Shown piece after piece: positions 38,352-38,973 of a stretch of 64,000 nucleotides of DNA. The position numbers were made by a program, and so were the translations under genes. The notes under the pieces were generated by a model. It saw only the letters and a list, made by a program, of their open reading frames with translations, made no database searches and was not told where the DNA came from. The DNA is from Octopus vulgaris (lineage: Eukaryota), in assembly GCA_951406725.2 (NCBI GenBank), contig OX597820.1, positions 45,322,001 through 45,386,000 on the forward strand, given 5' to 3'. Numbering within the stretch: the stretch's first letter is position 1; every line of letters starts with the position of its first letter.

Positions 38352-38973
38352 AGGTTTGGTTAAGGACGTCTCGCCCTGGTACGTGATGATGTCTGTTTCT
38401 TTATTTTTCCCCTGACGAAGGAATATTTATCGTGATGCACCATCGTGCATTAAATACGGTGATGAACCCCTGAAATGGCCATAGGGAATGTAAATATGGT
38501 TTCTTCTTTTTTGCTTAGACACTGGCTTTTAACAATAGGTTTCCCTTATCTTGGAAAGTAATTTTTAATCGAAAAAATTTCTAAATGATGAACTTTTATC
38601 TTACCATATTATATATTATTTATTTATGTTTCCTATATATATATATATTTTATATCGTTTTATATATCTATATATTTATATATTTCTTTATATTTTTATC
38701 TATTTATTATTCTAGATGTTGTAATGTTAAAAAACATATATTTTTTTAGTCGCTAAATTATTAATCATTAACTTTTAACCGCGATGGACTGTATTCATAC
38801 ATTTTTCTTATATTTTTCTTATATGCTTGTATTGATGAGTTGTGTTCCGTCTTCCGTGATTTTATGCATGTATATTCTATATGAAAGGAAAAGCATTATG
38901 TGATTAAATGTTCGAGATATGAAATGTTACGTGGATGACCTTATATTTGTTCGTTCTGCAACCATAGTTTAAT
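38352..38973 (+). mobile_element. Hammerhead-containing non-coding insert (Penelope pLTR/retrozyme-like)
   Basis: Unique sequence bracketed by long (TA)n arrays; ribozyme near the 5' end; no credible ORF. Confidence 0.6.
38407..38488 (+). ncRNA. Minimal type I hammerhead ribozyme with palindromic helix III (Penelope/retrozyme type)
   Basis: TTCCC-CTGACGA-AGG...CCT-GAAA-TGGCCA-TA-GGGAA. Palindrome ATGGCCAT at helix III, and an internal atgcac/gtgcat hairpin in stem II. Confidence 0.8.

What the first reader, a model, noticed from the sequence alone, without database searches (positions are those of the whole stretch)
38352..38973. Third, unrelated hammerhead element with palindromic helix III in a (TA)n tract
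Seen: intact core CTGACGA/GAAA, stem I TTCCC/GGGAA, stem II AGG/CCT enclosing a further hairpin, and an ATGGCCAT palindrome with an AUA cleavage triplet. It lies in an about 620-bp non-coding insert between two long TA arrays and has no visible similarity to the other ribozyme elements. Inference: an independent family, probably dimer-dependent.
Basis: partly seen in the sequence, partly recalled or inferred. Interest (0 to 1): 0.7.

Follow-up and report, generated by a model that had tools for sequence, protein, structure and literature searches.

The report
Long-armed hammerhead in solo retrotransposon end
This 621-base insert is the lone end repeat of a Penelope-like jumping gene of the Hydra type, lodged in a TA repeat inside an intron of what is likely an octopus gene, and it carries an intact hammerhead motif with an unusually long arm that is predicted to cut RNA only when two identical copies pair, so this single copy is likely silent.

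Summary
The hammerhead is real (type I, 38407-38488; no such motif in 150 shuffles of the window). The insert is not a stand-alone non-coding element. Genomic copies (86-94% identical) continue upstream into the GIY-YIG end of a Penelope-like ORF, and one continues downstream into its start, so the insert is a solo 3'UTR/pseudo-LTR. The protein bears the Hydra-clade motifs, and 47 of 58 3' ends abut (TA)n. The ribozyme frame is 33-34/35 identical between subfamilies whose flanks are 39-70% identical. Helix III is predicted to form only between two copies, and six different 8-nt helix III sequences in this genome are all self-complementary. Stem II spans 53 nt, against about 25 or fewer in published Hydra hammerheads; Rfam misses it. 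The copy lies in sense in a 63.8-kb intron and is predicted not to pair with the window's other hammerheads. Copies' 5' ends pile up where this one starts (20 versus 3.8 expected), a likely promoter start. Hammerheads in Penelope-like elements are known, and this scan already noted long-armed octopus Hydra hammerheads on other DNA. Cleavage is untested.

The parts
38299..38352 (.). (TA)27 tract, 5' flank; part of the likely target site
38353..38973 (+). solo 3'UTR / pseudo-LTR of a Hydra-clade Penelope-like element, without the ~87-nt tail; 4.2% from the majority of 19 subfamily copies
38351..38362 (+). hotspot of 5' ends among genomic copies (element positions -2 to 10); likely transcription start region (inferred)
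   Evidence: 20 observed, 3.8 expected, 128 copies; 12 versus 2.3 at positions 0-9
38407..38411 (+). hammerhead stem I, 5' strand (TTCCC)
38412..38418 (+). catalytic core, first half (CTGACGA)
38419..38471 (+). stem II, 53 nt: 3-bp base (A10.1-U11.1), 5x6 internal loop, 14-bp hairpin 38427-38462 with a 4-nt bulge
38472..38483 (+). GAA, palindromic helix III ATGGCCAT (38475-38482) and A17 (38483); predicted cleavage after 38483
38484..38488 (+). hammerhead stem I, 3' strand (GGGAA)
38974..39064 (.). (TA)45 tract, 3' flank; likely priming site of target-primed reverse transcription
1..44005 (+). 3' part of a 63.8-kb GT-AG intron (G000:C7:45302163-45366005) of a spliced host transcript that holds the element in sense
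44006..44458 (+). host exon closing that intron; the next exon (from 47713) has a weak CABIT-domain match

Best explanation
The insert is the solo end repeat of a Hydra-clade Penelope-like retroelement, lodged in a (TA)n tract of a host intron, and its hammerhead is predicted to cut only as a homodimer, so this lone copy is likely silent. Shown: the repeat family, its position both after the ORF stop and before the ORF start in other copies, the clade motifs of the protein, the (TA)n preference, the conserved ribozyme frame and the intronic sense position. Inferred mechanism: in a parent with two end repeats (end repeat - ORF - end repeat), RNA polymerase II starts in the upstream repeat about 125-131 nt before the cut site. 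The element's endonuclease nicks a (TA)n tract, the nicked strand primes at an AUAU at the end of the repeat or of its tail, and reverse transcription running to the RNA's 5' end yields a 621-nt solo copy like this one. The two hammerheads of a tandem transcript can swap strands, form an 8-bp helix III between them and cut after AUA to release unit-length RNA; most RNAs that left copies were uncut (or re-joined) at this site. The long stem II arm is likely a tolerated structured insertion that may stabilise the 3-bp stem II or bind the element's protein.
For: Dispersed family: 987 candidates, 40 scored, main matches 86-94% identical; 170 exact copies of a 19-mer over the ribozyme's 3' half, control 0. 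L007, L005, L003 and L006 run upstream into an ORF end with CNCRNPELC, VIYKC..FYIG, CKLCIRE and N..CIH. In L127/L009 the element and tail precede an ORF start with RLRWRAY and SDKT (translated by eye). A sister subfamily has an 806-aa open frame with the same hammerhead downstream; its relatives include an Argonauta hians protein, E 5e-132. These motifs match the Hydra definition in PMC8557442 section 11. 47 of 58 3' ends have at least 3 TA units within 16 nt, against 6% of random window positions. Ribozyme frame 34/35, 34/35 and 33/35 identical between three subfamily majorities, flanks 39-70%. Helix III probability 0.001 as a monomer and 0.72-1.0 between two copies; co-fold -56.7 versus -44.4 kcal/mol. 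6 of 6 distinct 8-nt helix III sequences seen in this genome are self-complementary through the centre, one by G-U pairs. A related family has a complete tandem: a 984-aa ORF between two identical hammerheads 4650 nt apart (L144). Heterodimers with the 12617 and 54280 motifs gain 0.2 and -1.0 kcal/mol against -12.3 for the homodimer. 5' ends cluster at positions -2 to 10.
Against: No cleavage assay and no raw RNA reads. Pfam finds no RT or GIY-YIG domain in the ORFs, so the domains rest on motifs and alignment. No tree with published Hydra proteins was built. No intact ORF and no complete same-strand tandem of this exact subfamily turned up among the loci fetched. Pair 10.1-11.1 is A-U, not the G-C that PMC4209133 calls highly conserved, and stem II has only 3 bp before an internal loop, which may lower activity. 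Covariation in the stem II arm does not exceed shuffles (188 of 500 reach it). Only 23 of 53 distinct copies keep both core halves and the palindrome. The 5'-end hotspot window was chosen after seeing the data, and the promoter reading is indirect.
Confidence: 0.8

Rival explanations
1. The 621-nt unit has become a non-autonomous, SINE- or retrozyme-like element of its own, transcribed from solo copies and mobilised in trans by Hydra proteins.
For: About one copy in six (20 of 128) starts within 13 nt of the same point, and 3' ends are sharp. A preprint (10.64898/2026.07.22.740005, abstract and introduction read) argues that animal retrozymes derive from pseudo-LTRs.
Against: The other 108 copies start at scattered positions, many reaching back into the ORF. 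No head-to-tail arrays of the unit were seen. No diagnostic changes marking copies that start at the hotspot were noticed (alignment; not tested formally).
Confidence: 0.12
2. The ribozyme is active as a monomer: the long stem II arm docks on an extended stem I and stabilises the 2-bp helix III, so solo intronic copies would cut host pre-mRNA.
For: The arm is kept at 50-61 nt in several octopus families and is 72-83% identical between subfamilies, above the flanks. Stem I can extend past a small internal loop. A few copies begin 3-4 nt after the predicted cut site (5 at position 135).
Against: Monomer helix III probability is 0.001. The centre of helix III stays self-complementary across families, which a monomer would not need. 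The host gene splices across this intron. Single minimal hammerheads of Penelope elements showed no cleavage in PMC4209133.
Confidence: 0.08
3. The motif is a catalytically dead or near-dead relic kept as a protein-binding or promoter structure rather than for cleavage.
For: Most copies read through the site uncut. PMC4209133 reports low activity even for dimers, and PMC8557442 reports that Naiad elements thrive without canonical hammerheads.
Against: Both core halves, the NUH triplet and all three helices are conserved across subfamilies and families with different helix sequences, which is the signature expected of catalysis.
Confidence: 0.1

Closest known systems
Hydra clade of Penelope-like elements (Craig et al. 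2021, PMC8557442; includes Hydra-1_Obim of Octopus bimaculoides)
   Same: C-terminal GIY-YIG, RW[KR], DKT, CxCX5C linker, CxxC and CxH around E and N, (TA)n targets, type I hammerhead in sense near the 3' end, inverted 5'-truncated partners, tail at one end only.
   Different: A different family from Hydra-1_Obim, whose listed hammerhead differs in sequence and has a short stem II. Stem II spans 53 nt here, about 25 nt or fewer in the 26 Hydra rows of File S2. The tail is about 87 nt, not 30-40. The unit is about 3.5 kb (my estimate from parts) with an Asn-rich ORF, against 'generally <3 kb'.
Dimeric minimal and palindromic-helix-III hammerheads of metazoan Penelope-like elements (Cervera and de la Pena 2014, PMC4209133)
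   Same: Type I fold, 5-bp stem I, short palindromic helix III, place in the pseudo-LTR, most copies solo.
   Different: A10.1-U11.1 instead of G-C; no extra nucleotide after A9; 3-bp stem II continued by an internal loop and a 14-bp hairpin.
Drosophila virilis Penelope pseudo-LTR promoter (Schostak et al. 2008, PMC2377424)
   Same: Transcription there starts inside the upstream pseudo-LTR, a short way before the hammerhead; the 5'-end hotspot here has the same relative place.
   Different: The start is mapped experimentally there and only inferred here; no intron was shown here.
Non-LTR retrozymes (10.64898/2026.07.22.740005)
   Same: Non-coding, type I hammerhead, proposed to derive from pseudo-LTRs.
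   Different: Retrozymes are tandem arrays of one unit; this is dispersed and continuous with an ORF in other copies.
PLE-X1_sMoe hammerhead of Selaginella (PMC8557442 File S2)
   Same: A Penelope-like hammerhead with about 53 nt in stem II and loop, so a long arm has a published precedent.
   Different: Other clade and kingdom, endonuclease-less, 9-bp stem II, targets 28S rDNA.

Membership tests
Hammerhead ribozyme, type I | Core CUGANGA, GAAA and NUH triplet | tested here: met
   conserved between subfamilies
Hammerhead ribozyme, type I | Three helices, ends in stem I | tested here: met
   Stems I and II form at probability 0.46-0.61 in the monomer; helix III forms only between two copies
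Hammerhead ribozyme, type I | Rfam hammerhead model match | tested here: not met
   No hit on 38353-38600 at E up to 10; likely due to the long stem II (inference)
Hammerhead ribozyme, type I | Self-cleavage after the NUH triplet | not testable with these tools
   No assay; only assembled contigs were available
Hydra-clade Penelope-like element | Single ORF, RT followed by C-terminal GIY-YIG | tested here: met
   YRDD and VIYKC..FYIG..R..H..E..N in L064 and L007; by motif and alignment, Pfam silent
Hydra-clade Penelope-like element | RWK motif and DKG changed to DKT | tested here: met
   RLRWRAY and SDKT in the frame behind the element in L127 (read by eye); SDKT in L064; RWK/RWR in relatives
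Hydra-clade Penelope-like element | CxCX5C linker; CCHH absent; CxxC and CxH beside the conserved E and N | tested here: met
   CNCRNPELC, CKLCIRE, LNKFTDVIPFCIH in L007
Hydra-clade Penelope-like element | No insertion-in-fingers domain | tested here: met
   RT3-RT4 spacing 59 aa in L064, 60 in the printed Hydra-1_Obim (counted by eye)
Hydra-clade Penelope-like element | Insertion into (TA)n | tested here: met
   47 of 58 ends versus 6% background
Hydra-clade Penelope-like element | Pseudo-LTR organisation with hammerhead, inverted copies and one-sided tail | tested here: met
   Element after the ORF (L007) and before it (L127); inverted copies and tails; full tandem seen only in a related family (L144)
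Hydra-clade Penelope-like element | Phylogenetic placement with published Hydra RTs | not tested
   The published reference proteins were not available to the alignment and tree tools
Neptune-clade Penelope-like element | CX2-5CxxC linker, DKG, CCHH motif | tested here: not met
   CxCX5C, DKT and no CCHH
Naiad/Chlamys | N-terminal GIY-YIG, DKA, no canonical hammerhead | tested here: not met
   Endonuclease is C-terminal, DKT, hammerhead present
Non-LTR retrozyme | Head-to-tail tandem units, each with a hammerhead, no ORF | tested here: not met
   One copy in the window; copies are dispersed and continuous with an ORF

The most novel reading that the evidence does not exclude
The 5' ends of dead copies record the RNA life of the element: a promoter start at positions 0-6 and, in a minority, an in vivo hammerhead cut (ends 3-4 nt behind the site). 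The long stem II arm of octopus Hydra hammerheads is a handle through which the element's protein licenses dimer cleavage, and solo start-to-end copies like this one are nascent retrozyme-like elements and portable promoters in host introns.
Probability: 0.15. Interest if true: 0.65.

Novelty: new variant of a known kind. Interest (0 to 1): 0.33.

Why it matters
Hammerheads in Penelope-like elements, their palindromic helix III and the Hydra clade's liking for (TA)n are published, so the core of the finding is known. What it adds: a Hydra family not listed in the clade's description; a long-armed hammerhead that Rfam misses, so counts of such ribozymes in these genomes are likely too low; and a way to read promoter use and ribozyme cutting from the 5' ends of genomic copies. 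That last point bears on an open question, what these ribozymes do in vivo. Strict homodimer dependence would also explain how sense copies with intact cores can sit in host introns without cutting the pre-mRNA.

Tried and rejected
Rfam on the whole window listed only microsatellite-driven noise among its best 150 of 208 matches, and on 38353-38600 no hammerhead. Pfam found nothing on the element's ORFs. Neptune was my first reading (note); rejected after reading the Hydra definition. No RNA holder was listed as RNA on record; contigs laid on the element show family sequence in 4 of 4 runs, and one contig identical to this copy over 221 nt, but cannot show ends, strand or level; no splice joint within the element appeared. 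Covariation test of the stem II arm on 14 copies: not above shuffles. Footprint of cleavage in 5' ends: 7 of 71 copies at positions 135-136 with the first anchor, but 4 versus 2.9 expected with the second; pooled 10 versus 3.6, 3 of them ambiguous because the alignment runs into a TA tract. RT stalling at stem I or A/T microhomology explain it equally, so it is a hint only. A recurrent TA microhomology as sole cause of the 5' hotspot is unlikely: six copies at position 6 have unrelated flanks. Luense et al. (dimer cleavage) is not held, so I saw only its title and the summary in a review. A paper search for hammerhead + type I + 'long stem II' + retrotransposon returned 0 papers; searches with octopus + Penelope + hammerhead returned PMC8557442 and two papers not read. 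No earlier scan note matched by sequence.

Full report
Observation. The motif is exactly as described: stem I TTCCC/GGGAA, core CTGACGA at 38412, stem II AGG/CCT around a 47-nt insert that folds into a 14-bp hairpin, GAA, the palindrome ATGGCCAT and A17 at 38483. The insert 38353-38973 lies between (TA)27 and (TA)45. My scan found no such motif in 150 dinucleotide shuffles of the window. The strand alone does not fold unusually well (z -1.14) and Rfam does not see it.

Setting. The window is G000:C7:45322001-45386000 of a 2.8-Gb genome. Contigs of 2 of 4 runs join an exon at window 44006-44458 to upstream and downstream exons. The upstream exon maps once, 20 kb before the window, with GT and AG ends. 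The element therefore lies in sense in a 63.8-kb intron of a gene whose next exon has a weak CABIT match (E 0.0003, below the curated cut-off).

The insert is a repeat end. A search with the 621 nt gave 987 candidates, 40 scored, with main matches 86-94% identical; a 19-mer over the ribozyme's 3' half has 170 exact matches, control 0. The 3' end is sharp. Of 58 3' ends collected from loci L001-L083 (a few are duplicates of one region), 23 carry a further tail of about 87 nt, and 47 are followed by at least three TA units within 16 nt, against 6% of random window positions. The 5' end is variable: L007, L005, L003 and L006 run upstream into the end of an ORF. In L127/L009 the element and its tail precede the start of the ORF. 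So the same sequence serves as 3'UTR and as upstream pseudo-LTR. Inverted partial copies next to the 5' end are common, as described for Penelope-like elements in PMC8557442 section 6.

Clade. A sister subfamily with the same hammerhead has an 806-aa open frame (L064); 720 relatives were found among 7996 candidates scored. The proteins carry RW[KR], DKT, YRDD, a CxCX5C linker, a C-terminal GIY-YIG and CxxC/CxH around E and N. These are the features that PMC8557442 section 11 gives for the Hydra clade, along with (TA)n targets and canonical hammerheads. Its supplement lists Hydra-1_Obim from Octopus bimaculoides with a different hammerhead (I saw part 2 of 59 and search hits). Pfam is silent on these ORFs and I built no tree with the published proteins. 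No intact ORF of the exact subfamily was among the loci fetched; the window copy differs by 4.2% from the majority of 19 copies, the mean being 4.5%, so the burst is over but not ancient. Related families have open frames of 842-1090 aa, and L144 is a complete tandem with two identical hammerheads 4650 nt apart.

The ribozyme was kept by selection. Between the majorities of three subfamilies the 35-nt frame is 34, 34 and 33 of 35 identical; the stem II arm is 34-39 of 47; flanks are 39-70%. Among 53 distinct copies, 39 keep the first core half, 39 the second, 32 of those the exact palindrome, and 23 everything, as expected for decaying dead copies. The arm pairs in 88.9% of cells against 36-52% when slid, but its covariation does not exceed shuffles (14 sequences), so its structure rests on folding rather than covariation.

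Dimer. In the monomer, helix III has probability 0.001. Two copies co-fold into the strand-swapped double hammerhead with an 8-bp helix III at probability 0.72-1.0 and both cores free, 12.3 kcal/mol below two monomers. Six distinct 8-nt helix III sequences were seen in this genome (ATGGCCAT, ACAATTGT, ACGATCGT, ACGATTGT, ACATATGT, ACTGCAGT). All six are self-complementary through their central four bases, which a monomer loop would not require; three of them belong to one lineage, so they are not six independent cases. PMC4209133 (parts 1-2 of 4 read) found no cleavage by a single minimal Penelope hammerhead and low cleavage by dimers; a review (PMC6765202, passages) says the same. The window's other two hammerheads cannot stand in as partners, so this copy is likely silent in its intron.

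Long arm. Stem II spans 53 nt here, 50-61 in several other families of this genome and 54 at window 54280, but 14-16 in others. The 26 Hydra rows of the published table have about 25 nt or fewer; one Selaginella element has about 53. Earlier notes of this scan had reported long-armed hammerheads in octopus Hydra elements on other DNA; I had reached the reading before looking and tested it here on this family.

5' ends. Using two exact anchors behind the ribozyme (71 and 96 sites), I mapped 5' junctions and pooled them to 128 copies after merging 6 duplicates. Twenty start at element positions -2 to 10 against 3.8 expected; six start at exactly position 6 with unrelated flanks, and the window copy starts at 0-1. 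Positions 0 and 6 are purines after T, as in the initiator rule (recalled). In Drosophila Penelope the transcript starts in the upstream pseudo-LTR (PMC2377424, abstract and passages). I read the hotspot as a likely promoter start and the insert as a start-to-end solo copy; the window was chosen after seeing the data, though the excess is large. A smaller cluster 3-4 nt behind the cut site (10 versus 3.6 pooled, 3 ambiguous; 4 versus 2.9 with the second anchor alone) is only a hint. Most copies read through the site, so cleavage was not obligatory in their templates.

The other hammerheads. The motifs at 12617 and 54280 belong to other repeat families (1497 and 1741 candidates, 40 scored each) with no DNA similarity to this one. 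Four of 12 loci of the 54280 family hold Hydra-like ORF pieces, two of them upstream in the same sense; for 12617, 1 of 12. 'Unrelated' holds for sequence, probably not for origin.

Verdict. A real, conserved hammerhead in the solo end repeat of a Hydra-clade Penelope-like element: a known pairing, with a long-arm variant and a family not in the published list I saw. Activity is untested. The rest of the supplement of PMC8557442 and the text of Luense et al., which I could not read in full or at all, may hold long-arm examples. Of the retrozyme preprint I read part 1 of 5. Interest 0.33.

Noticed in passing
window 12380-12847, hammerhead core at 12617 (+): Another repeat family (1497 candidates) ending at a TA tract, with a short stem II and a 12-nt helix III that is a perfect palindrome in copy L098; lies in sense in the same host intron.
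   Followed up: partly
window 54041-54400, hammerhead core at 54280 (+): Another repeat family (1741 candidates) with a 54-nt stem II and an inverted 74-nt piece at its 5' side; linked to Hydra-like ORF fragments in L093 and L089.
   Followed up: partly
window 37800-38314: Inverted pair of a separate repeat family (1788 candidates) facing a central TA tract; it shares the TA tract into which the element inserted. No hammerhead motif found in it.
   Followed up: partly
window 44768-45087 (-): Decayed fragment of a Hydra-like linker and GIY-YIG domain in the next intron of the host gene.
   Followed up: partly
window 44006-44458 and 47713-48857 (+): Exons of a spliced host gene with a weak CABIT-domain match; first seen intron 63.8 kb.
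   Followed up: partly
L064:2900-3500: Chimera: the end repeat and tail of one Hydra family (like L144) switch into the ORF of another, suggesting template switching between families.
   Followed up: partly
L139:4764-5911: A copy of this element sits next to the inverted end repeat and 792-aa frame of a different Hydra family, likely a shared TA target.
   Followed up: no
L144, L145, L146, L151, L153, L156: Several Hydra families with open frames of 842-1090 aa and long Asn-rich insertions; L144-L146 have near-identical end repeats and look recently active.
   Followed up: partly
PMC8557442 methods and File S1: Eight Naiad families, two of them cephalopod, are marked 'HHR_half_core' with core halves 35-50 nt apart; these may be long-armed hammerheads missed by the descriptor. 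Not tested.
   Followed up: no
window 38379-38420 (+): A GTACGT donor-like motif, a pyrimidine tract and an AG overlap the ribozyme's 5' half; in Drosophila Penelope an intron ends at stem I. No spliced form was seen.
   Followed up: partly
window 8865-10721, 21966-22577, 23258-23767, 59824-60378, 62025-62576: Open frames that look, from recall, like Tigger/pogo and mariner transposases, two Helitron Pif1 helicase pieces and a Penelope-like RT piece.
   Followed up: no
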